NCBI GenBank assembly: GCA_965207885.1
Contig: OZ242311.1
Location: 1,248,001 to 1,312,000 of the forward strand
Source: Candidatus Latescibacterota bacterium
Lineage (GTDB): Bacteria; Latescibacterota; UBA2968
DNA length: 64,000 bases
Direction: 5' to 3'
Below are positions 40,157-58,003 of this stretch, piece after piece. The notes beneath the pieces are model-generated. The model was given only the letters and a program-made list of their open reading frames with translations. It was not told where the DNA came from and ran no database searches. Made by a program: the position numbers and the translations under genes. Positions within the stretch are counted from its first letter, which is position 1. Every line of letters starts with the position of its first letter.

Positions 40157-40158
40157 TG

Positions 40159-40707: not shown

Positions 40708-40729
40708 AGCGCTCTTCCACTATACGGTA

Positions 40730-42436: not shown

Positions 42437-42461
42437 AAAAGACTACCTCTTCTCCAGTTCC

Positions 42462-42926
42462 CTATTTCAAAATATCCAAATCCAAAATTTTCTGTACATC
42501 GGCCTTCACTTGTGCGGGCACGCGAAACCGATAGCTCTTTCGTTGAGAAATGAGTTCCAAATCCCGCTCGGTACGCCACACATATCTCGAAAAACGCTGC
42601 CAGGGCATATAGCGCATACCCATCATCAATCCGCGCGCACTCATGGTCACGCGAATGGTAGCATACGCGATATAAAAAAATTCGAGAGAAAGCAAAAAAC
42701 CGAATAATTGCGGCACAAATCCCACGCCATCTGAGATCGCGGCTCCCCGAAACAGCACAATACCCCCCGTCACAATCAAAAGCACATCCCATCGCTTCTG
42801 CAAAAAAACCACCACAGGCTCTTGTGCATTGGACACATGACGTCGCAATCGCCAATACGCCACAATAGACGCGCCCAATAAAATGGGAGCGAGAATCAAC
42901 ACGATTTGTATAAGTGTCAAAGGCAT
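42462..42926 (-). CDS. Hypothetical membrane protein (DUF5673-like)
   Basis: Three TM segments plus RG...PWQRFSRYVW; tightly coupled to its neighbours. Confidence 0.65.
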   Translation of the reverse strand: MPLTLIQIVLILAPILLGASIVAYWRLRRHVSNAQEPVVVFLQKRWDVLLIVTGGIVLFRGAAISDGVGFVPQLFGFLLSLEFFYIAYATIRVTMSARGLMMGMRYMPWQRFSRYVWRTERDLELISQRKSYRFRVPAQVKADVQKILDLDILK

Positions 42927-42927
42927 G

Positions 42928-44557: not shown

Positions 44558-44712
44558 CAAGACCTTCGACTGCCATCCAGCAAATCATTTACAAACTCGT
44601 CAGCAATATCAAAACTTTCCTTCCACGAGCAGTTGTATGTATAGCGTATAAATGCCACACCGCCCAGGATCATCAAAATCGCAAATAGCGCGAGCTTAAA
44701 AAGTATCTTCAT
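44557..44712 (-). CDS. Small membrane-anchored protein (51 aa)
   Basis: Not in the ORF track. MKILFKLALFAILMILGGVAFIRYTYNCSWKESFDIADEFVNDLLDGSRRS*; ATGA overlap with the upstream gene and TGATG overlap with aroE. Confidence 0.7.
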   Translation of the reverse strand: MKILFKLALFAILMILGGVAFIRYTYNCSWKESFDIADEFVNDLLDGSRRS

Positions 44713-45368
44713 ATTTTCACCTCTTTTGGTTGAACAACAGTAGATAAACAGGCAAATAACCCGGCGAAATCACGACACATATCACCCGTATTTGACACCC
44801 GGGTTTCGCCCTCGGCTACCAATCCCGCCAGAGTAAAGGTCAATCCCGTGAGGGCATCGCCGCCAGCATCGACCTCTATACCCTCAAGGCGCACAGGTCC
44901 CTGCACCACCAGACCATCGGGCATTTCGCCTGCCTTAGCCCCCATTTGACGCAAATTTTGAATCGTCAGTGATAGGCGGTCAACCTCTCCCTGGCGCAAA
45001 CCCTCTCCATCTCGAATAACCGTTTCGCCCGCGGCTTGCGTGCCCATCACAGCGAGAAAAGGCACTTCACGAATAAATAGATCGGTTTGCTCGCCCCCTA
45101 TACGCGTGCGCCGCAATTCAGACCCCTGGACTTTAATCGTACGCGTCACCTTAGACTTTGATCGCGTCACCTGAATGTCCAATTGTGCATTCAACCGCCG
45201 CAACAAATCCAATGCGCGGCGGGTCTTCCAATCGTCGCCCACGCAGTGAAGGGTTAAATCCGACTGCGATAACATCGCCGCAGCGCCGAGCAAATAAAGC
45301 GTGGTCTCAGGATCCCCTGGAACATCGCACTCACCAATAAGCCCACGCGCTTCCTTTACCTCATACAT
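44709..45368 (-). CDS. Half-length, degenerate EPSP synthase (AroA)-like protein
   Basis: 219 aa. VPGD, A.GETVIRD..LR.GEVDR, L.QMGA..E.PDGLVVQG and GETRV match the AroA C-terminal half, but KESDR becomes GEVDR and DHR becomes DAL. Confidence 0.8.
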   Translation of the reverse strand: MYEVKEARGLIGECDVPGDPETTLYLLGAAAMLSQSDLTLHCVGDDWKTRRALDLLRRLNAQLDIQVTRSKSKVTRTIKVQGSELRRTRIGGEQTDLFIREVPFLAVMGTQAAGETVIRDGEGLRQGEVDRLSLTIQNLRQMGAKAGEMPDGLVVQGPVRLEGIEVDAGGDALTGLTFTLAGLVAEGETRVSNTGDMCRDFAGLFACLSTVVQPKEVKI

Positions 45369-45378
45369 ACTTACCCCT

Positions 45379-46488
45379 CTAACGCAACCGCACTTGATAA
45401 CCCGCATCTCGCAAAATATCGACAGACCGATCGGCTTCCTCCTGCTGCCCAAACCCCATCCGAATCGTCCCCCCTTCGCCTTCGCGCACCTTCAGGACTT
45501 CAATATCTTCAATATTAATTCCTTCGGCAGATAAACGCGAGGCAACATCGGCAATCACACCGGGTTTGTCTTCCACCACCAGCAAAATTTCGTGAAGCGG
45601 ATGCAAAAACCCCTTGGAATCTCTGGGAATCTCTCCGCGAATGCGATTCGCATAGTCAAAATCTTCTGATAGTGCCTCTCGATCCACCTTCTCTCGTATC
45701 GCCACAAGCGCGTCGAGATACGCATTGATCATCTCTCGAATAGGACCGGCATTGGTCTGACAAATATCTCGCCACATCGCAAACGGACTGGAGGCAATGC
45801 GCGTCAAGTCGCGGAACCCACCCGCCGCCATTTGCAGGGGAAGGCCATCGGCCTCATTGAGCCTGCCCACCAATCCCACGAGCGTGGTAGCCATCATCTG
45901 CGGCAAATGGCTCACCGTCGCCGCGACCCGATCATGCGTCTCTGCCTCCATGCGCATAGAACGCGCACCAATGCATTGCACCAGTGCTGCAAGCGCATCC
46001 ACAGTTTCGTCGGAAACACCGCTTGCGGGCGTAAGCACATAAAGCGCGTTTTCAAACAAAAAGGGATCGGCAGCACCCACACCGCTCTTTTCCGACCCCG
46101 CCATGGGATGCCCGCCCACAAAATGCACATCTTCACGCGCAACCTGTTCTGCACATGCGACAATCGCGCCCTTCGTACTGCCCACATCTGTAATAATACA
46201 ACCCGGCGAGGCCGCTTTCACGACCGAGGGTAATTGCTCCAGAATACGCACAATGGGCGAACACAAAAATACCAGATCTGACCGCTTTACGCCATTGTCC
46301 ATCGCGTCGTATCCATAACCACTGTCAATCACATCGAGCGCACGGGCCTCTCGCAGGGTCTCCGCGCGGCTAATACCAATAATCTCGCGCCCAATACCCA
46401 GTCGCTTAAACGCCAGCCCCAGCGACCCGCCAATCAACCCCACACCCACAATGGCAATCGCGGCATCTGTAAACGGAGGATCGTTCAT
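45379..46488 (-). CDS. tyrA: Prephenate dehydrogenase with a C-terminal ACT domain
   Basis: GVGLIGGS, TDVGSTK, GHPMAGSE, HD..A.VSHLP, FRDLTRIA and VEDKPGVIA motifs. Confidence 0.93.
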   Translation of the reverse strand: MNDPPFTDAAIAIVGVGLIGGSLGLAFKRLGIGREIIGISRAETLREARALDVIDSGYGYDAMDNGVKRSDLVFLCSPIVRILEQLPSVVKAASPGCIITDVGSTKGAIVACAEQVAREDVHFVGGHPMAGSEKSGVGAADPFLFENALYVLTPASGVSDETVDALAALVQCIGARSMRMEAETHDRVAATVSHLPQMMATTLVGLVGRLNEADGLPLQMAAGGFRDLTRIASSPFAMWRDICQTNAGPIREMINAYLDALVAIREKVDREALSEDFDYANRIRGEIPRDSKGFLHPLHEILLVVEDKPGVIADVASRLSAEGINIEDIEVLKVREGEGGTIRMGFGQQEEADRSVDILRDAGYQVRLR

Positions 46489-46515
46489 ACAAATAACCTG
46501 ATACGATATAAAATA

Positions 46516-47541
46516 CTAAACCAGACCCGCCAGATCCTTCACAAAAATTTCCGTATCTTCCCATCCCAGGCACGGGTCGGTAATCGACTTCCCAAATATC
46601 CCCTCTTCGGGTTTTTGCGCGCCCTCTTCCAGATAACTCTCCACCATCAACCCGCGCACCACATTGTGAAGCAGCGCGGAATGGCGGCGGCTGCGCATCA
46701 CCTCCAGACCAATGCGCGGCTGTTCGGAAAACGTTTTATCTGAATTATTGTGATTGGTATCCACAATAATCGTCGGATTGCCCAACTTGCGCGTAAGATA
46801 TTGCTCGGCAACATGCATCAAATCTTCGTAGTGATAATTGGGGATGCTTCGCCCATTATACGACATCCCGCGCAACACCGCATGCGTCAGCGGATTGCCC
46901 GACGTACTGACTTCCCAGCCATTGTGAAAAAATACATGCGGCATTTGCGCGGCATAAATGGCATTGAACATCACATCCAGATCGCCACCCGTTGGATTTT
47001 TCATGCCCGCGGGCACATCGACACCGCTAATGGTCAGGCGATGATTCTGATTTTCAACAGACCGCGCCCCCACGGCAATATAACTCAGCAAATCCTCTAC
47101 ATAAGGCAAATTCGAAGGGTAGAGCATCTCATCGGCAGCCGTCAAATGCGACTCGCGAAAAGCGCGAATCTGCATCTGCCGAATGGTCTTAATCCCAACA
47201 ACCATATCGGGCATACCTTTGGGATCGGGCTGATGGGCCATGCCCTTATACCCTTCGCCAGTCGTGCGCGGCTTATTGGTATAAATCCTCGGCACGAGCA
47301 CCAATTTGTCCATCACCTGCTCTTGAAGCTGTGCCAGGCGATTTACATATTCACACACCGCATCGACATTGTGAGCCGAGCAAGGACCAATAACCAACAA
47401 AAACTTATCGCTCTTGCGCTCAAAAATAGCCCGAATCTCGGCATCGCGTTCTTCTTTCTTAGACTTTAAATCATCGGGCAGTGGCAAAACATCCCGGATC
47501 TCTTCTGCACTCGGAATGGGCTGAATCCGTTTGAAACTCAT
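46516..47541 (-). CDS. aroF: DAHP synthase, class I-alpha
   Basis: GPCSA, KPRTTG.GYKG, GARSVENQ.HR, KNPTGG, LRG and SITDPCLGW motifs; allosteric specificity unknown. Confidence 0.9.
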   Translation of the reverse strand: MSFKRIQPIPSAEEIRDVLPLPDDLKSKKEERDAEIRAIFERKSDKFLLVIGPCSAHNVDAVCEYVNRLAQLQEQVMDKLVLVPRIYTNKPRTTGEGYKGMAHQPDPKGMPDMVVGIKTIRQMQIRAFRESHLTAADEMLYPSNLPYVEDLLSYIAVGARSVENQNHRLTISGVDVPAGMKNPTGGDLDVMFNAIYAAQMPHVFFHNGWEVSTSGNPLTHAVLRGMSYNGRSIPNYHYEDLMHVAEQYLTRKLGNPTIIVDTNHNNSDKTFSEQPRIGLEVMRSRRHSALLHNVVRGLMVESYLEEGAQKPEEGIFGKSITDPCLGWEDTEIFVKDLAGLV

Positions 47542-47556
47542 AATAGTACCTTTTTT

Positions 47557-47838
47557 TTAAGACTCTGAATCTGAGTGATCTTCTTCCAACCGCAGTGACT
47601 CATCGATAATCTGTCTAAAAATGCGTTGCGCTGCTTCGTGACTCAAAGGACCGCCATTCAATTCGCGAATGCGGTTGAGGATCAGGGTTTCTCGTTCGGG
47701 GACATGAAAGGGCAAACCCTCGGCACGCTTAATTTTTCCCACAGACAGAGCATACCGAGCACGCTCATTGAGCAACTCGAGAATCTGATCATCTAAGGCA
47801 TCAATTTTCTCGCGCCAGAAATCCAGATCCCTCTCCAT
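47557..47838 (-). CDS. Chorismate mutase (AroQ-type, stand-alone)
   Basis: REKIDALDDQILELLNERA..VGKIK and PERE motifs. Confidence 0.9.
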   Translation of the reverse strand: MERDLDFWREKIDALDDQILELLNERARYALSVGKIKRAEGLPFHVPERETLILNRIRELNGGPLSHEAAQRIFRQIIDESLRLEEDHSDSES

Positions 47839-47841
47839 AAC

Positions 47842-48645
47842 CTACACACCCTCTCTCAAAGGGCCGACCAAAGACCCGACAAACGCCCCCACCTTTGCAA
47901 CCAGATCGGCCTCGTGTTGGTACTCGCCAATGCGGCGCACAATCGCGCTACCAACCACAACCGCATCGGCATATCGCGCAATTTCCGATACATGCTCGGG
48001 CGTTGAAATACCAAACCCAACGGCAATGGGCATATCTGTGTGCTGGCATATCGCAGACACCTTGCTTTGAATTTCATCAGCCAGAGAATCGCGCTCTCCC
48101 GTCACCCCGGTGCGCGACACATAATAGATAAAACCTCTGGTATGCGATGCAATCAGCTTCATCCGATCATCGCGCGTGGTAGGCGTCACGAGAAAAACCG
48201 TATCCAGCCCATGCACATCCATCTGCGCTTTGTAATCGCCGCCCTCTTCCGGAGGCAGATCCAGCATCAGAACACCATCCACCCCCACATCTGCAGCGCG
48301 TTTTACAAAGCGCTCCACACCGTAGCGATGAATCGGATTATAATACGTAAACAGCACAATGGGGATTTCGGTCTCCATCCGCACATCTGCAACCATAGAC
48401 AACACGCCCTCGAGCGTTGCGCCGGCGGCCAAAGCGCGTTGTGACGCCTCCTGAATCACGGGACCATCGGCCAGAGGATCTGAAAAGGGAACACCCAGTT
48501 CCAGGACATCCACACCTCGCCGATCCAGTTCCAACACCACCTGATGCGTGGTATTTAAGTCTGGATCACCCGCCGTAATATACGCGACAAAGCCCGTTCT
48601 GTCCGCTTTTCTCAAGTCTTCAAACCGCTGACCAATCCGCATCAT
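47842..48645 (-). CDS. trpA: Tryptophan synthase alpha chain
   Basis: [34 protein letters not shown] and GFGIS motifs. Confidence 0.96.
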
Positions 48646-49847
48646 CTCACTCCTTCGATAAACCGCGCCGCTTGCTGCACATCTTTGTCCCCGCGTCCCG
48701 ATAAATTGACCACCACAGTCTGATCTCGACTCATCTCGGGTGCCAACTTGCAAACATGGGCAATAGCGTGTGAACTCTCCAAAGCGGGAATAATCCCTTC
48801 GGTATGACTGAGCAACTCAAAAGCACTGAGTGCTTCCTCATCCGTCGCATACGTATAAGTCGTGCGCGCCATATCTCGCAAATAACAATGCTCTGGCCCC
48901 ACGCCCGAATAATCGAGACCAGCCGACACCGAATGCGTCAATGCGATTTGCCCATCATCATCTTGCAACACATAGATGCGCGCACCGTGCAAAACCCCCA
49001 AATCGCCGCCATTAAACCGCGCAGCGTGCTCGCCAGACTCAATACCGTGCCCTCCAGCCTCCACACCGATCATCTGGACATCGGTATCATCTAAGAAAGC
49101 GTGAAACAACCCAATAGAATTGCTACCCCCGCCCACACAGGCGACGAGTACATCGGGCAATCGGCCTTCTCTGTCTAAAATTTGAGCACGGGCTTCAACG
49201 CCAATAACCCGCTGAAAATCGCGCACGATCATCGGATACGGATGCGGTCCCAAAACCGAACCAAAAATGTAAAACGTATCCTCCACATTGGTCACCCAGT
49301 CGCGGATGGCCTCATTAATCGCATCCTTCAGGGTTTTGCTACCCGAATGGACACCCGTAACTTTCGCTCCCAGGAGCCGCATGCGAAACACATTGAGCGC
49401 TTGCCGTTCCATATCTTCAACACCCATGTAAATTTCGCATTTGAGACCGAACATCGCAGCCACAGTTGCCGTTGCCACGCCGTGTTGTCCGGCACCAGTC
49501 TCGGCAATAATCCGCGTTTTGCCCATTCGGTTGGCGAGCAAAATCTGCCCCATGGCGTGATTGATCTTATGCGCCCCCGTATGGGCTAGGTCTTCGCGCT
49601 TGAGATAAATTTTAGGACCGCCGAGTTCTTCTGTCAACCGGTCGGCAAAATAAAGCGGCGTGGGCCGCCCGACATACTCGCCCAAATATCGATCCAGTTC
49701 AGCCCAAAACCCGGGGTCGCGCTTTGCCTCCCGATAAGCCGCCTCAAGGTCTTCCAACAGCGCCATAAGCGTCTCGGGCACATATTGCCCACCATAAGGT
49801 CCAAAATGTCCGCGCGCATCGGGCAAATCACTCGCGTTTACAGCCAT
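48642..49847 (-). CDS. trpB: Tryptophan synthase beta chain
   Basis: [34 protein letters not shown] and SGRGDKD motifs. Confidence 0.97.
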
Positions 49848-49860
49848 ATTGTATATCCTC

Positions 49861-50838
49861 TTAAATATCCCCAACGACTTGGTCGTAAAATGCCAGATAC
49901 CGATCGCAGTCATCACCATCGAGCAATGCCATTGCCTCGCGGGGATGCTGGTTGTGCTGACCCGTGATATTATAGGGCACCAGAGGTCCCCACATCATTT
50001 CGCGGCGCAACTTGACAAAATGCTCTTCCAGCAACTTATAGACGGGACGGATCTTAAACTTGGGATTCCGCAAAAAACCGAGCAACAATTCCATGGGACA
50101 ATTGCCCGCACCGCGACCCAATCCATCCACAGTAGCATCGACCCGATTGGCCCCCAAAATAATGGCCTCAATAGTATTGGCAAATGCCAGTTGCTGGTTA
50201 TTGTGCGCGTGAATACCCACCTCTTTACCCGAACCCTTGGTCGCCTCCATGTATTTTCGCACCAGCATATCGACCTGCTCGCGATACAGCGCACCGAAAC
50301 TATCCACCACGCAAATCGTGCCCACAGGGGTTTCCATCAGCACCTCTAACGCCTGATCAATCTCGACATCTTGCACCTTCGAAATCGCCATAATATTACA
50401 ACTCGTTTCATACCCCTTCTCGTGGGCATCGAGCAACATTTCGACAGTCTCGGGAATCTGCTCGACATAACACGCCACGCGCACCATATCGACCACGCTC
50501 TCGCTGGATGGCAGAATATCTTCGGCCCAATCGCTCTTGCCCGCATCCGCCATAATTGCGAGTTTCATCCCCGTCGCTTCGGGATCGTGATCCCCGGTAA
50601 TTTTGCGAATATCCTCTTCATCGCTGTGGCGGAACGCACCAAAATCTCTTTTGGGGAACATCTCTTTAGAGTTTCGGTAACCAATTTCCATATAATCAAC
50701 ACCCGCCGCGACACATGTTTCATACACGGCCTTCACAAAATCATCATCAAAATGATGGTCATTCATCAAACCGCCATCGCGGATCGTACAATCGAGTACC
50801 TTGAGTTCCGGACGGTAGGTAATCCAGGGTGCTTTCAT
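49861..50838 (-). CDS. DRE-TIM/HMGL-like aldolase (4-hydroxy-2-oxovalerate aldolase-like)
   Basis: [17 protein letters not shown] and GLGRGAGN motifs. Confidence 0.85.
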
Positions 50839-50896
50839 AAAAAATCCTTCCTTTGGAATTAAGTAGTTAGTGAAAAATCTACATGCACCTGCACAA

Positions 50897-52159
50897 TCAC
50901 GCCGACCACCTCACCAAAAAGTAGCGGCGTTTGCCGCGGCGTATCACCAGATATTTTCCAGCCAGTCTTTCAGACGGCTTTAAGACATGACTCATATCTG
51001 TACAGCGTTCTCCATTAATATAAATAGCGCCGGTCCTGATATCTTCGCGCGCCTGTCGCCTGGACGACGAAATCCGCGCATCCACGAGCAAATCTATCAA
51101 GACCACTTCATCAACACCTTTGAGCGTGTAAGACGGCACATCGCTAAACCCTTCTGCGATCTCCTGTTCATTCAAATCCCGCAAATTGCCGTAAAACAGC
51201 GCCTCGGAAATATGCACGGCGCGATCTTTTGCGGCTGCACCGTGGATAAAAGTCGTCACCTCTTCGGCCAGCACGCGCTGCGCCTCGCGCTTCTCGGGTC
51301 GCGCCTCCACCTCTCGTTCCAATTCCTCTATGCGTTCGCGGCTCAAAAAAGTGAACAACTTCAAAAATTTCACCACATCGCGATCCGCTGCATTCACCCA
51401 AAACTGATAAAATTGATAGGGCGATGTCTTCTCGGGATCGAGCCATAACGTACCCGTCTCGGTCTTGCCAAACTTTGTCCCATCCGATTTTTCCAGCAAC
51501 GGGAAAGTCAACCCATACACAGTCTTATTGAGCACGCGCCGACACAACTCTATGCCCGCTGTAATATTGCCCCACTGATCGCTACCCCCGATCTGAAGCT
51601 CACAGCCATACTTTCTGTTCAACGCCATAAAATCATACGCCTGCAAAACCATATAACTAAATTCGGTAAACGAAATCCCGGTTGAAAGACGCGACGACAC
51701 CGACTCTTTGCCCAGCATATATCCCATTGAAAAGTGTTTGCCCACATCGCGCAAAAATTCAATCGTACGCAACTCCGAAAGCCAGGTATAATTGCTCACC
51801 ATCAGCGCCGGATTGTCCCTGGTCTCAAAATCCAGATACTTTTCCAATTGCGCGCGCTGGCACTCCGTATATGCCTGCACTACCTCCAGTGAATTCAACT
51901 GTCGCTCTTCTGCTTTCCCACTCGGATCGCCGATCAATCCCGTGCCCCCGCCCACGAGTGCAATGGGCTTGTGCCCCGCATCCTGAAAGCGACGCAATCC
52001 CATAATGGGAACCAGACTGCCCGCATGCAGACTATCGGCTGTGGGGTCAAATCCGCAATACAACGTCATCTGCCCCTCTGCCAAACGCCTGCGGAGCTTA
52101 TCCTCATCTGTCATCTGAAAAATATAGCCACGAAATGCCAAATCGTCTAACACATCCAC
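50897..52159 (-). CDS. tyrS: Tyrosine--tRNA ligase
   Basis: YCGFDPTADSLHAG, QIGGSDQWGN, KFGKT and a C-terminal S4 domain. Confidence 0.97.
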   Translation of the reverse strand: MDVLDDLAFRGYIFQMTDEDKLRRRLAEGQMTLYCGFDPTADSLHAGSLVPIMGLRRFQDAGHKPIALVGGGTGLIGDPSGKAEERQLNSLEVVQAYTECQRAQLEKYLDFETRDNPALMVSNYTWLSELRTIEFLRDVGKHFSMGYMLGKESVSSRLSTGISFTEFSYMVLQAYDFMALNRKYGCELQIGGSDQWGNITAGIELCRRVLNKTVYGLTFPLLEKSDGTKFGKTETGTLWLDPEKTSPYQFYQFWVNAADRDVVKFLKLFTFLSRERIEELEREVEARPEKREAQRVLAEEVTTFIHGAAAKDRAVHISEALFYGNLRDLNEQEIAEGFSDVPSYTLKGVDEVVLIDLLVDARISSSRRQAREDIRTGAIYINGERCTDMSHVLKPSERLAGKYLVIRRGKRRYFLVRWSA

Positions 52160-52180
52160 GTTTTTATCTCCATATTCATA

Positions 52181-52786
52181 TCACGCCTTTGCGCGCGCCA
52201 AAAAATCTCGTACTTTTTTGTAATCCTTCTTCCCCGGCTCGGCTTCTACGCCACTACTCGTATCCACCGCATAGGGACCAACTCGCTCAATCGCCTCCTG
52301 AACATTATCCGGATTTAACCCACCAGCAAGAATAATGCGCCCATACTCTTTTGCCTCCACCGCCTTTGTCCAGTCAAATATCTCCCCCGTACCGCCGTAA
52401 AAACCCGCTCTCTCTGTATCCAATAAGAATGTATTGACCAGATACGACCCCATCGTCTGCACATCAAAATCGCGTCCCACGCGAAGCGCGCGAATCACCG
52501 GCACCGCATGCCCCAGACATGCTTCGGGAGGCTCATCCCCGTGCAATTGAATCGCCCGAAGCCCCGCCAACTTCACGGCAACGTCAATCTCTCGTTCCGA
52601 TGCATTCACAAACACCCCTACGGGAGTCACAAATGGCGGCAAATCAAAAACAATTTCTCCGGCTTTCTCGGGCGCAATATAGCGAAGGCTCTTCTCGTAA
52701 AAATTAAACCCCAGGGCATCTGCACCGTGATCAACCGCACACAACGCATCATCCCGATTTGTAACACCGCAAATTTTAGCTCGCAT
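52181..52786 (-). CDS. trpF: Phosphoribosylanthranilate isomerase
   Basis: KICG, QLHGDE, GGTG..FDW, LAGGL and DTSSGVE..PGKKD motifs. Confidence 0.95.
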   Translation of the reverse strand: MRAKICGVTNRDDALCAVDHGADALGFNFYEKSLRYIAPEKAGEIVFDLPPFVTPVGVFVNASEREIDVAVKLAGLRAIQLHGDEPPEACLGHAVPVIRALRVGRDFDVQTMGSYLVNTFLLDTERAGFYGGTGEIFDWTKAVEAKEYGRIILAGGLNPDNVQEAIERVGPYAVDTSSGVEAEPGKKDYKKVRDFLARAKA

Positions 52787-53567
52787 GCCCTATCAACTCC
52801 TGCAACCTGGCGGCAATATCCGGTTCGCGCATCAAACTTTCGCCCACCAGCACGGCATCTGCGCCCGCATCTCGAAGCGCGACAACATCCTCCCGCGTAT
52901 AAATACCGCTCTCACTCACCTTCAACACATCATCGGGAATATGATCAATCAACCCATAAGTCGTATCCAGAGACGTATCAAAAGTCTTCAAATTCCGATT
53001 GTTAATCCCAACAACCTCTGCCCCAGCATCGAGCGCGACCATCAGTTCTTCTCTCTCGTGTACCTCCACCAGCGCATCCAGACCCAGCGCACGGCTCGTC
53101 GCTATAAATGAGGACAATTCTTCAGGCGTTAAAATCGACACAATCAACAACACAGCCGAAGCCCCAATCGCGCGCGCCTCGTAAATCTGATAGGGATCAA
53201 TCGTGAAATCCTTTCGCAAAATGGGCCGATCAACAACTGTTGAAATCTGAGTCAAATAATCTGCCGACCCCTGAAAAAATTTCTCATCCGTCAATACCGA
53301 AATCGCCGAAGCTCCATTTTCCACATAAATTTTCGCAATGCCCACTGCGTCAAAATCCCCGCGTATCACACCCTTAGAGGGCGATGCCTTTTTTACCTCG
53401 GCGATCACAGCAATATCATCCCCATCTACCAGCCCATCAAAAAACGAAGGCGGTTCCGGCGCCTCCTCGGCCAACTGCGCCATCTCCTCAAACGGCGTCT
53501 GCGCCATACACCTGGCGAGAAACCTGCGTTTATACGCCACAATTTTGTCGAGAATATTGCCGGCCAT
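52776..53567 (-). CDS. trpC: Indole-3-glycerol phosphate synthase
   Basis: IAEVKKASPSKG, SVLTD, LRKDF, GINNRNL and SESGI motifs. Confidence 0.96.
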   Translation of the reverse strand: MAGNILDKIVAYKRRFLARCMAQTPFEEMAQLAEEAPEPPSFFDGLVDGDDIAVIAEVKKASPSKGVIRGDFDAVGIAKIYVENGASAISVLTDEKFFQGSADYLTQISTVVDRPILRKDFTIDPYQIYEARAIGASAVLLIVSILTPEELSSFIATSRALGLDALVEVHEREELMVALDAGAEVVGINNRNLKTFDTSLDTTYGLIDHIPDDVLKVSESGIYTREDVVALRDAGADAVLVGESLMREPDIAARLQELIGHAS

Positions 53568-53592
53568 AAAATCCCACCATCCTCAGACGGTG

Positions 53593-54657
53593 CTAAAGCC
53601 AAGACCGCGGATCGGGAACGGACACCCATCCATTTTCGCGTACTGACTGCAACCCCGCAATACCGGGCAGTGTCATATCCAGCGCCTGCATCAAATCTAC
53701 CGGCGGTGGCGATCCATTCGCAACCGCCCGCACAAAATCCAGAACAATGAGCATACTCGTTTTGCCGTGCCCTGCACCGAGCGCGCTCGAAAACTGGGGC
53801 AACTCGGGATGGTGGCATTCTTCGCGCGTCACCTGCTCCTTATTCCCCACCGAATAATAACACACCGTTCGGGCTTCGCGAAATCGCCCCGTCTCTAAAG
53901 AACCCTCATCGCCATAAAAACTCAAGAAATGGCTCATCCCATGCACATTCTGAAACGAATTGGTCAACCTGAACACCGCACCTTCTTCGGTTCGAAACAA
54001 AGCCGTCTGTACCCAATCTGCTTCATACCCTTCTAAAAACTCATCTCTTCCTGAAGCCGAAACAGCCATGACCTCAACCAGACGATCGCCCGTCATATTC
54101 AAATACGGCGACGTCCCATGTGTCGGATAAAGAAGGGGTTGTAAACTATTCCGCCAGGTCGGCCGCCTATCGGGATGTCGCCTCAACGCTTTTAGACCGT
54201 GAATATACTCGGCTTCGGCATAGTAAATACGCCCCAGCTTCCGCGCTTCATAAAGCGACCTGGCGCGCACCACACTGGGTTCATAGACCCAATTCTCAGC
54301 CATCATATAAATGCGGTCACTTTTTGAAATAACCTCGACCAGCACCCTTGCCTCATCCATAGTCAGCGCAGCGGGCACGGCACACAAAACGTGCTTACCG
54401 GCCCGGATCGCTCGAATCACCTGTTCTGCATGAAGCGGCGCGGGAGTAAAAATAGCCACCGCATCAATCCGTTCATCAGCGACCAGATCATCAAAAGCCG
54501 CATAACAAACATCGACACCCAACTGCTCTTTTGCCTCGTCCAGTTTCTCCTGCTGGATGTCACAAACAGCGACCAACTCAGTCTCGGCATACGCATCAAA
54601 CACCCGTGCCCAGGACATGCCAAATCGCAAACCAGCAACACCTACAGAAAGAGCCAT
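53593..54657 (-). CDS. Gfo/Idh/MocA family oxidoreductase
   Basis: VGVAGL.FG, TP..LH, AGKHVLCAVP, YMMAEN and YPTH motifs. Confidence 0.88.
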   Translation of the reverse strand: MALSVGVAGLRFGMSWARVFDAYAETELVAVCDIQQEKLDEAKEQLGVDVCYAAFDDLVADERIDAVAIFTPAPLHAEQVIRAIRAGKHVLCAVPAALTMDEARVLVEVISKSDRIYMMAENWVYEPSVVRARSLYEARKLGRIYYAEAEYIHGLKALRRHPDRRPTWRNSLQPLLYPTHGTSPYLNMTGDRLVEVMAVSASGRDEFLEGYEADWVQTALFRTEEGAVFRLTNSFQNVHGMSHFLSFYGDEGSLETGRFREARTVCYYSVGNKEQVTREECHHPELPQFSSALGAGHGKTSMLIVLDFVRAVANGSPPPVDLMQALDMTLPGIAGLQSVRENGWVSVPDPRSWL

Positions 54658-54680
54658 TTTACCTCACTTCATCTCCAGAA

Positions 54681-55694
54681 TCATTCCTGACTCGCCGCGA
54701 CCAAAGCGTCCAACTTCTCCAACGCCTTGCCCGAGTCAATCACTTCAGCGGCGACCTGCACACCTTCGTTCAAATCACGCGCCTTATCGCCCGTCACAAT
54801 TGCCGCTGCCGCATTCAACAGCACAATATCGCGTTGAGGACCTTCCTCCCCATTCAGAATCGACCGCGTAATCTCCGCATTATAATCGGCATCTCCACCT
54901 TTTAGCGCATCGGCTGGCGCCTGCGCCAGCCCAAAGTCCCCAGGTGATACATCATACGTCGAAACCGATCCATTTTTCAATTCGCTCACCCTCGTCGGAC
55001 CCGTCAGCGTCATCTCATCCAAACCATCCGAACCGTGAACGACAAACGCGCGCTCCGCCCCCAGGGTCGCCAAAACACCTGCGAGTGTCTCGGTCAATGC
55101 CGCGCTGTACACACCGACCACCTGCCGCGTTGCACCCGCCGGATTGCTCAGCGGTCCCAGCGCATTGAAAATTGTCCGCGCACCAATTTCCCGACGCGGC
55201 CCAATCGCGTATTTCATCGCCCCATGCAACGAAATGGCAAACAAAAACCCAATCCCCACATCGTCCAGACACCTGCTCATCGTCTCGGGCGATGCCTCAA
55301 TACTCACACCCAATGCACTCAGCACATCCGCGCTACCACTTTGACTCGTTGCCGCGCGATTGCCGTGTTTGGCCACACACAAACCCGCCCCAGCCGCGAC
55401 AAATGCCGCAGTTGTCGAAATATTAAACGTGCCCGAATGATCGCCCCCCGTACCACATGTATCGACAATCACATCGTGCTTTGTCGCAATAGGCGTTGCC
55501 TTCTCGCGCATCACAGACGCGGCCCCGGCAATCTCATCAACACACTCGCCCTTCACGCGCAACGCAATCAAAAACGCGCCGATCTGTGCATCCGTCGCCT
55601 CGCCCGACATAATCTGATTCATCACATCCGTCATCTCATCCCGGCTCAAATCCGCACCTTCGATCACTTTTGCAATCGCCTCTTGTATGTTCAT
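54681..55694 (-). CDS. trpD: Anthranilate phosphoribosyltransferase
   Basis: DTCGTGGD, FNISTT, KHGNR, SGSAD and GLDE motifs. Confidence 0.96.
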   Translation of the reverse strand: MNIQEAIAKVIEGADLSRDEMTDVMNQIMSGEATDAQIGAFLIALRVKGECVDEIAGAASVMREKATPIATKHDVIVDTCGTGGDHSGTFNISTTAAFVAAGAGLCVAKHGNRAATSQSGSADVLSALGVSIEASPETMSRCLDDVGIGFLFAISLHGAMKYAIGPRREIGARTIFNALGPLSNPAGATRQVVGVYSAALTETLAGVLATLGAERAFVVHGSDGLDEMTLTGPTRVSELKNGSVSTYDVSPGDFGLAQAPADALKGGDADYNAEITRSILNGEEGPQRDIVLLNAAAAIVTGDKARDLNEGVQVAAEVIDSGKALEKLDALVAASQE

Positions 55695-55716
55695 ACTCAT
55701 CTCCTCAGCTAACAAA

Positions 55717-56280
55717 TCATGCATCGAGAAAATTTTGCAGCAAATTCTTGCCTTCACCCGTCAAAATCGATTCCGGATGAAACTGCACGCCATCCACCGC
55801 CATATCTCGATGGCGCAAACCCATAATCACGCCATCATCGGTCTCTGCCGTAATTTCCAGACAAACGGGCAAACTCTCTCGCTCGACCACCAGCGAATGG
55901 TAGCGCGTGGCAATAAACGGCTCAGGTAATCCCTCAAAAATAGACTTCCTCGTATGATGAATTTCCGACACCTTCCCGTGCATAATCGTCGGCGCGCCCA
56001 CAATTTTTCCACCAAATGCCTGCCCGATGGACTGATGCCCCAGACAAACCCCTAAAATCGGAATTTCCCCCGCAAAATGCTGCACCAAAGCCACGGAAAT
56101 TCCCGCTTCGTTTGGCGTACACGGCCCCGGAGAAATCACGATCTTCTCAGGTGCGATATCCGCAATCTCTTCAAGTGAGATTTGATCATTGCGATACACC
56201 ACCAGATCCGCACCCAGTTCGCCGAGATATTGAACGAGGTTATAAGTAAAAGAATCGTAGTTATCAATGACGAGAATCAC
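55717..56280 (-). CDS. trpG: Anthranilate synthase component II (glutamine amidotransferase)
   Basis: [26 protein letters not shown] and QFHPES motifs. Confidence 0.95.
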
Positions 56281-57752
56281 AACAACACTCCTCTTTCAGC
56301 CATTTCCACCGCCCGAAACAGTGCCCGCGCTTTGTTCACGGTCTCCTGATATTCGTATTCCGGCTCTGAATCAAACACCACACCACCTCCTGCCTGCACA
56401 TACGCTTTGCCATTCTTAATCACCAGCGTGCGAATGGCAATACACGTATCCATATTGCCCGCAAAATCGATATAACCCACCGCACCGGCATAAGGCCCGC
56501 GGCGCGTAGGTTCCATCTCGTCGATAATCTCCATCGCCCGAATTTTTGGCGCGCCCGACACCGTACCAGCCGGATAACATGCAAAAAGCGCGTCCAGCGC
56601 ATCGACACCCTCGTGCAATTCCCCGCACACATTCGAAACGATATGCATCACATGAGAATAGCGTTCAATCGCCATCTGCTCGGTCACGCGCACCGTATCA
56701 AACCTGGAAACGCGCCCCACATCATTGCGCCCCAGATCCACCAGCATAATATGCTCGGCGCGTTCTTTTTCATCTGCCAACAACTCCTGTGACAGCACCT
56801 GATCCTCTGCCTCTGTTTTGCCGCGCCACCGCGTCCCCGCAATAGGTCGCACCTGCACCACCCCGTCCTCTACCCTGACGAGCAACTCGGGCGACGCGCC
56901 CACGAGTTGATGATCTTTCAAATCGACGTGAAACATATAAGGCGACGGATTCACCGTCCGCAACGCCCGATAAATATCCAGTGCATCCACCGTCACATCC
57001 ATTGCAAAGCGCTGCGAAGGCACCACCTGGAAAATATCACCTGCCACAATGTATTCCCTGCAATGCGCCACCACATCCATATACGCTTCTTTGCTCGTAT
57101 TTGAAGTCACGACACACGAACTCGTGCCCGGTTTCAGAGACACATCCACCGGTTGCGCCAGTACCTCAATAAGTGTATCGATCCGTTTGACTGCATCCTC
57201 GTAATTCGCCTCCAAATCTCCCTCTGTATGCACATTGGCCATCACATGCACTTTGTGCGTCACATTGTCAAACGCCAGCACCGAATCGTAAAAGGAAAAA
57301 AATATATCGTCAAAACCGAGATCGTCTTCAACCGTCTCGGGAATGCGCTCAATCAAACGCACGGCATCGTAACTCACATAGCCCACAGCACCGCCTGTAA
57401 ATCGAGGCAACCCCTCCACAGGTTGCGAATGGTATTTTTTTAACAACCCACGCAATACCTCAATAGGCTCCCCGTCAAATAGTCGCAGCTCACCCGTCGT
57501 CGCATGTTCAATCGAAATTTTTGTTCCGCGCGAACGAAAAACCAGAAACGGATCCACGCCTAAAAACGAATACCGCCCAATCTGCTCGCCGCCCACCACG
57601 CTTTCAAACAAAAACGCATGCGATGATCTGGCGCGAATTTTCAAATAAGCCGAAACAGGCGTCTCCGTATCCGCGAGTAGTTCTCTTGAAATGGGAACGA
57701 GACCACAGTCTTTGCTCATCTTCTTCACAGTTTTGAGATCGGGTTGAATCAC
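56277..57752 (-). CDS. trpE: Anthranilate synthase component I
   Basis: [32 protein letters not shown] and [11 protein letters not shown] motifs; GTG start after AAGGA. Confidence 0.95.
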
Positions 57753-57768
57753 TGGAAAATCCTTAAAG

Positions 57769-57805
57769 AAAATAAAAAAGGTCGTGAGCAGTTTGCCCAC
57801 GACCT
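57769..57805 (-). terminator. Intrinsic (attenuator) terminator upstream of trpE
   Basis: RNA AGGUCGUGGGC-AAACU-GCUCACGACCU (11 bp, one G-U pair) followed by UUUUUAUUUU. Confidence 0.85.
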
Positions 57806-57832
57806 CGTACTTTTATTTTCATACCAAAACAC

Positions 57833-57934
57833 TCAACACGCAGGACAAACCACACTCTTGGACGGGCGGCAATAATAATATCGACCGTCAAATCGACGCC
57901 AAAAATACCAGAAGTAGGTCGCAAAAGCGTTCAT
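57833..57934 (-). CDS. Attenuator leader peptide rich in Tyr, Phe and Trp (33 aa)
   Basis: Not in the ORF track. MNAFATYFWYFWRRFDGRYYYCRPSKSVVCPAC*; AAGGA RBS; stop codon about 27 nt before the terminator. Confidence 0.85.
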   Translation of the reverse strand: MNAFATYFWYFWRRFDGRYYYCRPSKSVVCPAC

Positions 57935-57975
57935 CACATCAAATTCCTTAAACCAGAGTTATATCGGACGCGCCA

Positions 57976-58003
57976 AAGATAACAAATTCTAAAACAGTGT
58001 CAA
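57976..58003 (-). promoter_or_regulatory. Putative sigma70 promoter of the leader and aromatic operon
   Basis: TTGACA-N16-TATCTT with an extended TG. Confidence 0.55.

What the first reader, a model, noticed from the sequence alone, without database searches (positions are those of the whole stretch)
57769..57934. One attenuator that may sense all three aromatic amino acids (YFWYFW...YYY leader)
Seen: an unannotated 33-codon ORF with its own RBS, MNAFAT-YFWYFW-RRFDGR-YYY-CRPSKSVVCPAC. It has 11 aromatic residues (5 Tyr, 4 Phe, 2 Trp), including a tandem Tyr-Phe-Trp repeat. An 11-bp hairpin with a U-tract follows it, just before trpE. The end of the leader ORF (GGUUUGUCCUGCG, 57851-57839) can pair with the terminator 5' arm and loop (CGUGGGCAAACU, 57801-57790) to form an antiterminator. 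A ribosome reaching the stop codon would cover that segment; one stalled at YFWYFW or YYY would leave it free. Known: the classical trpL and pheL leaders each sense one aromatic amino acid, and multivalent leaders are best known for thr and ilv. Inference: shortage of any charged tRNA-Tyr, -Phe or -Trp switches on the whole shikimate/trp/tyr operon. I do not recall this design being described, but I cannot check the literature.
Basis: partly seen in the sequence, partly recalled or inferred. Interest (0 to 1): 0.92.

Follow-up and report, generated by a model that had tools for sequence, protein, structure and literature searches.

The report
Aromatic-codon leader attenuator before trpE
A 33-codon mini-gene packed with tyrosine, phenylalanine and tryptophan codons, followed by a switchable terminator, very probably lets ribosome speed control a large aromatic amino-acid operon; it is a new variant of a textbook mechanism.

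Summary
A 33-codon ORF (57934-57833, minus strand; 4 Phe, 2 Trp, 5 Tyr) with its own Shine-Dalgarno and promoter-like site is followed by a 13-pair terminator just before trpE.

All 53 readable trpE-upstream regions from relatives carry a homologous ORF with F, W and Y codons plus a terminator. Aromatic codons make up 29% of the leader frame against 9% and 8% in the other two frames. The antiterminator strand sits at the leader's end in 52 of 53 and changes together with the terminator arm in another family.

Homologous leaders elsewhere in the phylum are Trp-dominated. Tyr-rich ones coincide with tyrS (and, in two families, DAHP synthase) inside the operon.

I read it as a classical ribosome-mediated attenuator (about 0.9). 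It probably senses Trp and Tyr; Phe sensing is less certain.

Weak points:
- In the window alone the antiterminator is no better than shuffles.
- Anti-antiterminator pairing is unclear in this genus.
- There are no expression data.

I found no three-aromatic leader in the literature. This scan has noted similar leaders in other genomes. Verdict: new variant of a known kind.

The parts
57976..58003 (-). Promoter-like site, TTGACA-16 nt-TATCTT with TG before the -10 hexamer
   Evidence: 10 of 12 matches. A TTGAC[AT]...TAnnnT-like site lies within 110 nt upstream of the leader start in 43 of 53 relatives. No transcription start is mapped.
57945..57949 (-). Shine-Dalgarno-like AAGGA of the leader ORF
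   Evidence: It is conserved as (A)AGGA(A/T) before the start in most genus members.
57833..57934 (-). Leader ORF, 33 codons plus TGA: MNAFATYFWYFWRRFDGRYYYCRPSKSVVCPAC
   Evidence: Homologous ORFs occur in 53 of 53 readable trpE-upstream regions. The aromatic fraction is highest in this frame in 53 of 53.
57899..57916 (-). First regulatory cluster, codons 7-12 (Tyr-Phe-Trp-Tyr-Phe-Trp)
   Evidence: FWYFW is kept in 17 of 20 genus leaders, and position 7 varies (Y/C/H). With a ribosome masked here, the model gives antiterminator P of about 0.8.
57872..57880 (-). Second regulatory cluster, codons 19-21 (Tyr-Tyr-Tyr)
   Evidence: All 20 genus leaders have YYY or YYYY. Runs or pairs of Tyr also occur in f1, f2 and f4 leaders.
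57839..57851 (-). Segment 2, the upstream strand of the antiterminator (GGUUUGUCCUGCG), made of the last codons of the leader
   Evidence: In 52 of 53 relatives the best duplex with the terminator 5' arm lands at this place. The UG(U/C)CC core is invariant in alignment A2.
57790..57806 (-). Segment 3, terminator 5' arm plus loop. It pairs either with segment 2 or with segment 4.
57778..57789 (-). Segment 4, terminator 3' arm
   Evidence: In relatives 94% of cells are paired, and 6 of 12 pairs show changes on both sides.
57768..57777 (-). U-tract (TTTTATTTTC), directly after the stem; the stem's own last pairs already use two U
56277..57752 (-). trpE (anthranilate synthase component I), first structural gene
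   Evidence: Pfam Chorismate_bind and Anth_synt_I_N. Orthologues were found in relatives.
39053..56280 (-). Rest of the co-directional aromatic gene cluster. Order: trpG, trpD, GFO/IDH/MocA oxidoreductase, trpC, trpF, tyrS, HMGL-like gene, trpB, trpA, chorismate mutase (47838-47557), DAHP synthase, tyrA, aroA remnant, aroE, ubiE-like, argS, aroK, aroB.
   Evidence: The gene order is conserved in 15 relatives. That it forms one transcript is an inference from short gaps and shared strand.

Best explanation
This is a classical ribosome-mediated transcription attenuator at the head of a trpE-led aromatic supraoperon.

Proposed mechanism:
- Transcription starts at the TTGACA/TATCTT promoter.
- A ribosome translates the 33-codon leader while RNA polymerase moves on.
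- If charged tRNA-Trp, tRNA-Tyr and probably tRNA-Phe are plentiful, the ribosome reaches the last codons and the stop codon. There it covers segment 2 (57851-57839). The 13-pair hairpin with its U-tract then forms and transcription ends 26 nt before trpE.
- If the ribosome stalls at the aromatic codons (codons 4-21), segment 2 stays free. It pairs with the terminator's 5' arm and loop as these emerge, the terminator cannot form, and polymerase reads into trpE and the genes behind it.

The leader carries 5 Tyr, 4 Phe and 2 Trp codons. The operon holds Trp-branch genes, tyrA, tyrS, chorismate mutase and a DAHP synthase. The switch is therefore most likely multivalent: sensing of Trp and Tyr is well supported by composition, and sensing of Phe is plausible but weaker.

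Shown: the anatomy, its conservation, the frame-specific codon enrichment and the ribosome geometry. Inferred: termination at the hairpin, the kinetic competition, and the response to each amino acid.

My odds: about 0.9 that it is a leader-peptide attenuator, about 0.6 that it responds to more than one aromatic amino acid, and about 0.4 that it responds to all three.
For: (1) Anatomy in the window.

(2) Conservation. All 53 readable trpE-upstream regions have an ORF with at least 1 F, 1 W and 2 Y plus a terminator. They come from the genus, four further genera of the family, a second family of the order, a further family f4 and one f3 genome. Model R1 finds one copy per genome at trpE: f1 28 of 29, f2 19 of 19, f4 2 of 2. 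It hits the window's own genome once.

(3) The element stays with trpE when the upstream neighbour changes (L003, L006, L007, L014, L016).

(4) Codons.
- The aromatic fraction is 0.29 in the leader frame against 0.09 and 0.08 in the other two frames. The leader frame is highest in 53 of 53.
- Enrichment over 18 operon proteins is W 7.8x, Y 4.1x and F 2.7x.
- Both TAT/TAC and TTT/TTC are used.

(5) Terminator: 94.0% of cells paired against 34-54% for slid controls. Six of 12 pairs change on both sides, and 0 of 500 shuffles reach this.

(6) Antiterminator.
- The best duplex of the upstream 56 nt with the 5' arm and loop lands at the leader's end in 52 of 53, at -11 to -23 kcal/mol.
- In a fixed register, 72.7-75.1% of cells pair against 32-52% for slid controls.
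- Cognate pairs beat swapped pairs: -16.8 against -15.4 kcal/mol, reached by 32 of 20000 permutations.
- In family f3 both strands are different but still complementary: UGCGUCC with GGACGCA. Loop-proximal pairs are compensatory, GAU/AUC against GGU/ACC.

(7) Geometry.
- 475 of 497 aromatic codons lie more than 12 nt upstream of segment 2.
- A ribosome at the stop codon covers the start of segment 2 in 47 of 53.
- In the masked-ribosome model, antiterminator P is about 0.7-0.8 for codons 3-24 of the window leader and 0 for the last ten positions, codons 25-33 and the stop.

(8) Link to operon content.
- Homologous leaders in other families are W-dominated, for example RRWWWRFWSY, GGWWWYWRK and RWCWWWRGH.
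- tyrS lies inside the operon in 14 genomes examined (f1, f2 and two of f4). Their leaders have 2-6 Tyr, and 13 of 14 have 3 or more.
- 14 genomes without tyrS in the operon have 1-2 Tyr and 2-4 Trp (the f3 counts were trimmed by eye to the first Met).
- Within f4, the one genome without tyrS has 2 Tyr against 4 in the two genomes with it.
Against: (1) There are no expression data. The only RNA-library records are metatranscriptome contigs of relatives, which cannot show 3' ends or levels.

(2) In the window alone the antiterminator duplex (-12.7 kcal/mol) is not better than chance: 55 of 300 shuffles do as well, and the shuffled mean is -11.2. It is much weaker than the terminator (-19.8). 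With the 3' arm present the terminator wins at equilibrium for every ribosome position, so the switch must be kinetic.

(3) Formal covariation of the antiterminator is thin. The 5-pair core never varies. Only 1 pair of 10 in A2 shows changes on both sides, a count that all 500 of 500 shuffles reach.

(4) An anti-antiterminator (1:2) helix is predicted in most other groups but not in the consensus of this genus. The model gives antiterminator P = 0.78 for the window with no ribosome at all. The off state therefore depends on the ribosome at the stop codon.

(5) Phe enrichment is modest and only partly frame-specific. pheA is not in the operon.

(6) A review reports that C. glutamicum aroR, with an F-Y-F leader, responds to Phe but not to Tyr.

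(7) The tyrS/Tyr-codon association rests on about three independent contrasts.

(8) In at least 13 of 53 relatives, none of them in the genus, a second promoter-like site lies between the terminator and trpE. There it would bypass the attenuator.
Confidence: 0.6

Rival explanations
1. It is a Trp-only attenuator. The two Trp codons do the sensing, as in E. coli trpL. The Tyr and Phe codons are passengers left by drift from a W-rich ancestor, or tolerated because U/A-rich codons keep the region unstructured.
For: - Homologous leaders in other families of the phylum and in other phyla are Trp-dominated, with WW or WWW runs.
- Two Trp codons suffice in E. coli (recalled).
- Tyr availability does not affect C. 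glutamicum aroR despite its Tyr codon, per review passages.
- Phe enrichment is only partly frame-specific.
Against: - Tyr is 4.1x enriched, at 12.2% of leader codons against 0.5% and 0.7% in the other frames.
- All 20 genus leaders have YYY or YYYY runs.
- Trp codons fell to 1-2 while Tyr rose to 3-6 in just those lineages whose operon holds tyrS.
- Aromatic-to-aromatic replacements occur, for example W to Y by two base changes in L125.
Confidence: 0.22
2. The element is mainly a gene for a trans-acting product. That product would be a conserved aromatic/Arg-rich micro-peptide, or the terminated ~150-nt leader RNA acting as an sRNA, as described for peTrpL and rnTrpL in Sinorhizobium meliloti. 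Attenuation would be secondary or absent.
For: - The peptide sequence is highly conserved within the genus (WRRFDGRYYY..SKSVVCP).
- In at least 13 of 53 relatives trpE has its own promoter-like site after the terminator, which would make the leader a separate transcription unit there.
- Dual-function trp leaders exist (abstracts listed).
Against: - Peptide conservation decays quickly outside the genus, while codon composition and the RNA pairing persist.
- In L022 and L025 the stop codon moves upstream and the conserved 'VCP' stretch is kept only as RNA, in another frame.
- The element is always next to trpE.
- This rival is not exclusive of attenuation.
Confidence: 0.08
3. The hairpin is simply the terminator of the upstream ABC-transporter gene (58013-58795), and the small ORF is a chance reading frame.
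For: - The hairpin lies about 205 nt downstream of the ABC ATPase gene on the same strand.
- It is symmetric, with an A-tract before and a U-tract after.
- The best Rfam match (rli42, far under threshold) is only a terminator-like alignment.
Against: - A promoter-like site lies between the transporter gene and the ORF.
- The ORF and hairpin follow trpE when the upstream gene differs.
- The reading frame, start and aromatic codons are kept in 53 of 53.
- Only 3 such ORF-plus-terminator pairs exist in the genome.
Confidence: 0.02
4. It is a TnaC-like nascent-peptide arrest element. The peptide would sense a free aromatic amino acid inside the ribosome tunnel, rather than tRNA charging.
For: The window's peptide has W12, D16 and P24. 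This is the spacing I recall for E. coli TnaC; the comparison is recalled, not computed.
Against: - The spacing is not conserved. 14 of 20 genus leaders have a fourth Tyr, which by itself shifts the Pro by one (in L014 a two-codon deletion upstream also moves the Trp). The Asp is absent in most leaders outside f1, including all of genus g7.
- The Pro is not followed by a stop codon.
- An intrinsic terminator, not a Rho site, follows.
Confidence: 0.02

Closest known systems
E. coli / Salmonella trpL-trpEDCBA attenuator (Yanofsky model; Rfam Trp_leader RF00513)
   Same: A short leader ORF with its own start lies before trpE. Regulatory codons sit upstream of a strand that can pair with the terminator's 5' arm, and an intrinsic terminator directly precedes trpE. 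A ribosome at the stop codon blocks the antiterminator.
   Different: - There is no sequence or structure match to RF00513.
- The leader has 5 Tyr and 4 Phe codons as well as 2 Trp, and the Trp codons are not adjacent.
- The controlled cluster also holds tyrS, chorismate mutase, DAHP synthase, tyrA and common-pathway genes.
- The 1:2 helix is unclear in this genus.
Multivalent leaders of Enterobacteria (thrL with Thr+Ile codons; ilvL/ivbL with Ile/Leu/Val codons).
   Same: One leader carries several codons for each of several amino acids, whose pathways share the controlled enzymes.
   Different: The amino acids here are the three aromatic ones. I found no aromatic counterpart in print. The operon also includes an aminoacyl-tRNA synthetase gene (tyrS).
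Corynebacterium glutamicum aroR leader before aroF (Neshat et al. 2014, seen only through passages of the review PMC11802643)
   Same: A leader peptide with mixed aromatic codons (Phe-Tyr-Phe) lies upstream of a DAHP synthase operon, and attenuation works by ribosome stalling.
   Different: - aroR has two amino acids and three codons, against three amino acids and 11 codons here.
- aroR precedes aroF, while this leader precedes trpE; C. glutamicum has a separate Trp leader for trp.
- The review reports that aroR responds to Phe but not Tyr.
pheL-pheA, and the uORFC-13-1 motif before aroF in Acholeplasma (PMC8632094 passages; PMC3082878 abstract)
   Same: A uORF with aromatic (Phe) codons sits next to an intrinsic terminator and controls an aromatic-pathway gene.
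   Different: These carry a single amino acid (Phe), control single genes or small operons, and have unrelated RNA.
Bacillus subtilis aro/trp supraoperon with TRAP (PMC1173090 passages)
   Same: A trp operon is embedded in a larger aromatic supraoperon, with transcription attenuation in the trp leader.
   Different: The sensor there is a Trp-activated RNA-binding protein, not a translating ribosome, and it is specific for Trp only.
W-rich trpE leaders of the same RNA architecture in other families of this phylum and in Desulfobacterota-type MAGs (L062, L093, L192, L194-L209)
   Same: They are homologous or very similar in layout. The leader ends in a ..V-C-P-like stretch whose RNA (GUUUGYCC or UGCGUCC) pairs with the terminator 5' arm (GGGCA or GGACGCA), directly upstream of trpE.
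   Different: Those leaders carry WW or WWW runs and few Tyr or Phe codons. Their operons, where examined, lack tyrS and the DAHP synthase.

Membership tests
Classical ribosome-mediated (leader-peptide) transcription attenuator | Short translatable ORF with its own ribosome-binding site in the 5' leader of a biosynthetic operon | tested here: met
   ATG 57934 with AAGGA 9 nt upstream. The ORF is kept in 53 of 53 relatives.
Classical ribosome-mediated (leader-peptide) transcription attenuator | Enrichment of codons for the amino acid(s) made by the operon, specific to the reading frame | tested here: met
   W 7.8x, Y 4.1x, F 2.7x. The aromatic fraction is 0.29 against 0.09 and 0.08 in the other frames, and the leader frame is highest in 53 of 53.
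Classical ribosome-mediated (leader-peptide) transcription attenuator | Intrinsic terminator between the leader ORF and the first structural gene | tested here: met
   13-pair stem plus U-tract at 57806-57768. In relatives 94% of cells are paired and 6 pairs change on both sides. Actual termination was not measured.
Classical ribosome-mediated (leader-peptide) transcription attenuator | Antiterminator that shares a strand with the terminator, and whose other strand is covered by a ribosome at the stop codon but free when the ribosome stalls at the regulatory codons | tested here: met
   The position is conserved in 52 of 53. Geometry fits for 475 of 497 codons and 47 of 53 leaders. A family-level compensatory switch is seen. 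Caveat: the duplex is not significant in the window alone, and the invariant core gives little formal covariation.
Classical ribosome-mediated (leader-peptide) transcription attenuator | Anti-antiterminator / pause helix (1:2) that includes or adjoins the regulatory codons | tested here: inconclusive
   The helix is predicted in g6, g7, g8, g9/g11, g10 and f4 consensus folds, but not in the consensus of the window's genus. The window model gives antiterminator P = 0.78 without a ribosome.
Classical ribosome-mediated (leader-peptide) transcription attenuator | Readthrough rises when the cognate charged tRNA is limiting | not testable with these tools
   Only metatranscriptome contigs of relatives were available.
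Rfam Trp_leader (RF00513) and other catalogued amino-acid leaders | Match to the family covariance model | tested here: not met
   cmscan of 45000-64000 at E <= 10 gave only rli42 (23.9 bits against a gathering score of 80) and an IRES model. The element is not a member of any Rfam 15 family.
Multivalent attenuation (one leader, several amino acids) | Several codons for each of two or more amino acids in the stall-competent part of the leader | tested here: met
   5 Tyr, 4 Phe and 2 Trp codons, all upstream of segment 2 by more than 12 nt. The minimum over 53 leaders is F 1, W 1, Y 2.
Multivalent attenuation (one leader, several amino acids) | The operon encodes functions needed for each sensed amino acid | tested here: inconclusive
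   Trp branch, tyrA, tyrS, chorismate mutase and DAHP synthase are present. The Phe-specific pheA is elsewhere and has no leader. Co-transcription is not shown.
Multivalent attenuation (one leader, several amino acids) | Separate response to starvation for each amino acid | not testable with these tools
   This needs an experiment. The aroR precedent shows that codon presence is not enough.

The most novel reading that the evidence does not exclude
One leader integrates the charging state of tRNA-Trp, tRNA-Tyr and tRNA-Phe to control a roughly 19-gene supraoperon that includes an aminoacyl-tRNA synthetase gene (tyrS). Its codon make-up has co-evolved with operon content. An ancestral Trp-only (WWW) attenuator, widespread in this phylum, would have been re-coded to a Tyr/Phe-rich one in the lineages where tyrS, trpFBA and a DAHP synthase joined the operon. 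That would be a natural example of a sensor being re-programmed by codon turnover while the RNA switch stayed the same.
Probability: 0.35. Interest if true: 0.7.

Novelty: new variant of a known kind. Interest (0 to 1): 0.5.

Why it matters
- Leader-peptide attenuation is a textbook mechanism. The aromatic examples I found in print read one amino acid (trpL, pheL, pheM) or at most carry a short F-Y-F motif (aroR).
- Here a conserved family in an uncultured lineage, probably Latescibacterota, carries many codons for all three aromatic amino acids in front of a supraoperon that mixes common-pathway, Trp-branch and Tyr-branch genes with tyrS. If it responds to each, it is the aromatic counterpart of the thr/ilv multivalent leaders.
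- W-rich homologues control operons without tyrS, and Tyr-rich ones control operons with it. This gives a testable case of how sensor specificity can evolve by changing codons only.
- Practically, the family is absent from Rfam and would be missed by annotation pipelines.
- It does not reveal a new mechanism.

Tried and rejected
- Rfam search at E <= 10: no amino-acid leader family matched.
- Equilibrium folding with the whole terminator present: terminator P = 1.00 at every ribosome position. This is uninformative, because the decision must be kinetic.
- Public RNA runs: only Logan contigs from metatranscriptomes, 90-95% identical and so from relatives. One 259-nt contig in X1 covers 57796-58052, and contigs in the other runs cover trpE. 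They show neither ends nor levels, so they say nothing about termination.
- Second aromatic ORF plus terminator at genome 3567069-3566971: it lies out of frame inside the 3' end of a membrane-protein gene. Rejected.
- The third hit of that scan, genome 2090194-2090298, was not followed up.
- The 300-nt gap between trpA and the DAHP synthase: it holds a 93-aa chorismate mutase, not a second leader.
- pheA: it overlaps its upstream gene and has no leader.
- Secondary hits of model R1 in relatives (L183-L186, L190, L191): plain terminators at gene ends.
- Arg sensing, considered because argS is in the cluster: Arg is 2.0x enriched, but it is also 10.6% in the +1 frame, so this is probably a composition effect.
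- TnaC-like arrest: the W12/D16/P24 spacing is not conserved.
- Placing the phylum with TIGR04294: nothing matched, not even in the control genomes, so the search was uninformative.
- The search for related loci in genome contigs: no close relative was returned, and the best named hit was 60% identical.
- One search failed on a frame slip of one base and was corrected.
Full report
**1. Observation**

On the minus strand the window reads as follows.
- An AAGGA lies at 57949-57945.
- An ATG at 57934 opens a 33-codon frame, MNAFATYFWYFWRRFDGRYYYCRPSKSVVCPAC, which ends with TGA at 57835-57833.
- A hairpin follows at 57806-57778: 13 pairs, 7 of them G-C, a loop of 3, then TTTTATTTTC.
- The GTG start of trpE is at 57752.
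- A promoter-like TTGACA-16-TATCTT with an extended -10 TG lies at 58003-57976, between the upstream ABC-transporter gene and the ORF.

The stem is 13 pairs rather than 11.

No Rfam 15 family matches. The best match is a terminator-like alignment to rli42 at 23.9 bits, against a gathering score of 80.

**2. Genomic context**

Behind the leader, all on the same strand, lie these genes:
- trpE, trpG and trpD;
- a GFO/IDH/MocA oxidoreductase;
- trpC and trpF;
- tyrS (TIGR00234);
- an HMGL-like gene;
- trpB and trpA;
- a 93-aa chorismate mutase (47838-47557);
- an AroFGH-type DAHP synthase;
- tyrA with an ACT domain;
- a C-terminal remnant of aroA;
- aroE, a ubiE-like methyltransferase, argS, aroK and aroB.

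Most gaps are under 60 nt. That this is one transcript is an inference. pheA lies about 69 kb away, overlaps its upstream gene and has no leader.

**3. Conservation in relatives**

A TrpE search of 61 related genomes gave 55 loci with an orthologue whose upstream DNA I fetched. Two were cut by contig ends (L017, L024). In all 53 others I found a terminator preceded by a small ORF with F, W and Y codons. The starts of six leaders were corrected by hand.

Examples:
- YFWYFWRRFDGRYYYY in the genus;
- LWYWRRFDGRFYYY;
- FFWRYFWYYRYYRQ;
- WRGYFYRSYRWYYRE;
- FSFSFLRSYYDYWSSFY.

The element stays with trpE where the upstream gene differs (five genus members). A covariance model of the 3' part (R1) hits the window's own genome once. 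In a phylum sample it hits one site per genome at trpE in f1 28 of 29, f2 19 of 19 and f4 2 of 2.

**4. Codon composition**

- The aromatic fraction is 0.29 in the leader frame, and 0.09 and 0.08 in the other two frames of the same DNA. The leader frame is highest in 53 of 53. Minimum counts are F 1, W 1, Y 2.
- Against 18 operon proteins, 20 representative leaders are enriched 7.8x for W, 4.1x for Y, 2.8x for C, 2.7x for F and 2.0x for R.
- Y and W are nearly absent from the other frames. F is only 1.6-2x above them, and R is not frame-specific.
- Genome-wide, 216 small ORFs pass a loose aromatic filter. Only 3 of them have a strong terminator behind them, and one of the other two is an out-of-frame artefact.

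**5. RNA structures**

Terminator:
- 94.0% of cells are paired, against 34-54% when partners are slid.
- Six of 12 pairs change on both sides.

Antiterminator:
- The best duplex between the 56 nt upstream and the terminator's 5' arm plus loop falls at the end of the leader ORF in 52 of 53. L018 picks another site. Energies run from -11 to -23 kcal/mol.
- In a fixed alignment register, 72.7% (A1) and 75.1% (A2, 37 of the 53 sequences) of cells pair, against 32-52% for slid controls.

Results against the antiterminator:
- The UGCCC/GGGCA core never varies, so it says nothing either way.
- Only one pair of 10 in A2 changes on both sides, and 500 of 500 shuffles reach that count.
- In the window alone, -12.7 kcal/mol is matched by 55 of 300 shuffles.

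Results for the antiterminator:
- Cognate segment-2/segment-3 pairs are better than swapped ones across 15 representatives: -16.8 against -15.4 kcal/mol, reached by 32 of 20000 permutations. The sequences are related, so this overstates the case.
- In family f3 both strands are replaced together: UGCGUCC with GGACGCA or GGGCGCA. Loop-proximal pairs are compensatory, GAU/AUC against GGU/ACC.
- In L022 and L025 the leader stops earlier, yet the segment-2 RNA is kept in another frame. This argues that the 'VCP' stretch is conserved as RNA.

Anti-antiterminator (1:2):
- Consensus folds of the leader alone show a helix between segment 2 and a strand at or just before the first aromatic codons in g6, g7, g8, g9/g11, g10 and f4.
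- They do not show it in the consensus of the window's genus.

**6. Ribosome geometry**

- 475 of 497 aromatic codons in the 53 leaders lie more than 12 nt upstream of the first paired base of segment 2. A ribosome with the stop codon in its A site covers that base in 47 of 53.
- I modelled a transcript ending before the 3' arm, with a 28-nt ribosome mask, for 21 of the 53 sequences.
- In the window the predicted antiterminator probability is about 0.7-0.8 for stalls at codons 3-24 and 0 for the last ten positions, codons 25-33 and the stop.
- Without a ribosome it is 0.78 in the window but near 0 in seven other sequences.
- With the 3' arm present the terminator always wins. As in other attenuators, the choice must therefore be kinetic. 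I did not simulate this.

**7. The wider family and the link to operon content**

Upstream of trpE in other families of the phylum, the same architecture carries Trp-dominated leaders.
- In f3, 15 of 17 regions have W-rich leaders such as RRWWWRFWSY..CVHP and RRYWWRRYHK.
- f11 has GYWWYWRK. f13 has RWCWWWRGH..VCP. f8 has QRWYWRRFHKE.
- In 10 f10 regions my script found no terminator. One of these (L222) was only 127 nt, cut at a contig end.
- MAGs of other phyla have WWW leaders (L062, L093, L100). R1 weakly hits L093, L062 and a named Latescibacterota locus directly upstream of trpE.

Operon maps (tblastn with the window's proteins) show the following.
- tyrS follows trpF in the window, in 11 f1/f2 relatives and in 2 of 3 f4 genomes. 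Some carry a second TyrRS type, about 30% identical, at the same place.
- tyrS is absent from the cluster in 11 f3 genomes, one f4 genome, and the f6, f7 and f8 examples.
- The DAHP synthase is in the cluster in f1/f2 only.
- Leaders of the 14 genomes with tyrS have 2-6 Tyr (13 of 14 have 3 or more) and 1-2 Trp.
- Leaders of 14 genomes without tyrS have 1-2 Tyr and 2-4 Trp. The f3 counts were trimmed by eye to the first Met.

This fits codon make-up tracking operon content, but it amounts to about three independent contrasts.

**8. Literature**

Full-text searches were run. I read passages of PMC11802643, PMC8632094, PMC4833913, PMC1173090 (including its section 36), PMC1262725, PMC2659441 and PMC11109978.

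The closest cases found:
- C. glutamicum aroR, an F-Y-F leader before aroF. The review says it responds to Phe limitation and not to Tyr.
- A Phe uORF before aroF in Acholeplasma.
- A cited Tyr-tRNA attenuator idea for aroF.
- Predicted attenuators before tyrA supraoperons, with no codon detail given.

I found no leader with codons for all three aromatic amino acids. The library lacks most subscription papers, and supplements were closed. Neshat 2014, Vitreschak 2004, Panina 2001 and Lopatovskaya 2010 were not readable and may bear on this.

The scan's own earlier notes describe similar mixed aromatic leaders in at least nine other genomes, and one look-alike of this very element. These are unchecked AI notes, not publications.

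**9. Mechanism and odds**

I commit to a classical leader-peptide attenuator (about 0.9).
- The off state relies on the ribosome at the last codons and the stop codon masking segment 2.
- The on state relies on stalling anywhere in codons 4-21.
- Trp and Tyr sensing is supported by strong, frame-specific, conserved enrichment, by Tyr runs, and by the tyrS association.
- Phe sensing is plausible. Starvation for Phe would call for DAHP synthase and chorismate mutase, both in the cluster. It is less well supported.
- Response to more than one amino acid: about 0.6. To all three: about 0.4.

The rivals are a Trp-only sensor with passenger codons (0.22), a trans-acting peptide or RNA (0.08, not exclusive), a chance ORF before a plain terminator (0.02), and TnaC-like arrest (0.02).

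**10. Caveats**

- No transcript ends or levels are known. Searches gave only contigs from relatives.
- The phylum name (probably Latescibacterota) is an inference.
- In at least 13 of 53 relatives, none in this genus, a second promoter-like site follows the terminator.
- The related sequences are not independent, so all counts across them overstate the support.

**11. Verdict**

The feature is real and conserved, and the finding is well observed. It is a new variant of a known kind, not a new mechanism. Interest is moderate.

Noticed in passing
window 44709-45452 (-): The aroA gene of the cluster is only a C-terminal half: it covers EPSP_synthase positions 225-405 of 417, and about 820 nt separate tyrA from aroE. 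Most relatives have about 1.5 kb there. Two full-length EPSP-family genes lie elsewhere in the genome, at 1024331-1025548 and 4861059-4862294 (one is presumably murA). G032 and G058 also look short at this place.
   Followed up: partly
window 50897-52159 (-); L140:5063-6286; L148:5626-6846: tyrS sits inside the trp operon, after trpF, throughout two families. In some genomes the same slot holds a different TyrRS type only about 30% identical, and both types match TIGR00234. This suggests non-orthologous displacement at a fixed operon position.
   Followed up: partly
window 49861-50838 (-); L136, L137, L142: An HMGL-like (DmpG/aldolase-like) gene lies between tyrS and trpB. It is present in only 3 of 15 relatives examined, yet it is 84-92% identical there, while neighbouring genes are 57-88% identical. 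That is unusually conserved, or recently spread. Its function in an aromatic operon is unexplained.
   Followed up: no
window 53593-54657 (-): A GFO/IDH/MocA-family oxidoreductase is inserted between trpD and trpC. No relative examined has it at this place. G018 has a different insertion of about 2.1 kb between trpG and trpD.
   Followed up: no
L022-L030, L112, L117, L132-L134 (between terminator and trpE): In at least 13 of 53 relatives a strong promoter-like site (CTTGACAAAT..N..TTATTA) follows the attenuator's terminator. After it comes a conserved 5' UTR motif (for example ATCTTGATAAAATTTCGATAGTTAG), so trpE may have a second, attenuator-independent promoter there. This is absent in the window's genus.
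   Followed up: partly
L006-L009, L016 (between terminator and trpE); L132, L133 (5' UTR): Short tandem copies of a CATCTGCG(T/C)CCATCTGCGGAT-like unit are inserted at different places around the attenuator in several genomes. This may be a small mobile or repeat element.
   Followed up: no
L181 (G015) and L182 (G012), absent in the window's genome: A 41-codon Phe-rich ORF ends in ..DVCPG and is followed by two terminator hairpins, upstream of a 297-aa protein of unknown function. It is weakly hit by the attenuator model. It could be a Phe-type paralogue of the attenuator or a small membrane peptide.
   Followed up: no
L187, L188, L189 (families f9, f12): A WWW-type leader and terminator of the same architecture precede not trpE but a protein of about 460 aa with a signal-peptide-like N-terminus. 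In L188 a TrpB-like gene follows.
   Followed up: no
window 57833-57934 and 40730-42436 (-): Arg codons are 2x enriched in the leaders (13.5% against 6.7%), and argS is a conserved member of the cluster. The enrichment is not frame-specific, so it is probably a composition effect of the CG-rich paired segments.
   Followed up: partly
whole window: GC skew is strongly negative on the plus strand (about -0.14 to -0.26 in seven of eight 8-kb bins) at about 51% G+C.
   Followed up: no
genome C1:2090194-2090298 (+), outside the window: A third small aromatic ORF (LGYFLFRYDLAWPTDLAETYHPHQYFSIDFTGLF) is followed by a -17.8 kcal/mol hairpin and a T-run. Its context was not examined.
   Followed up: no
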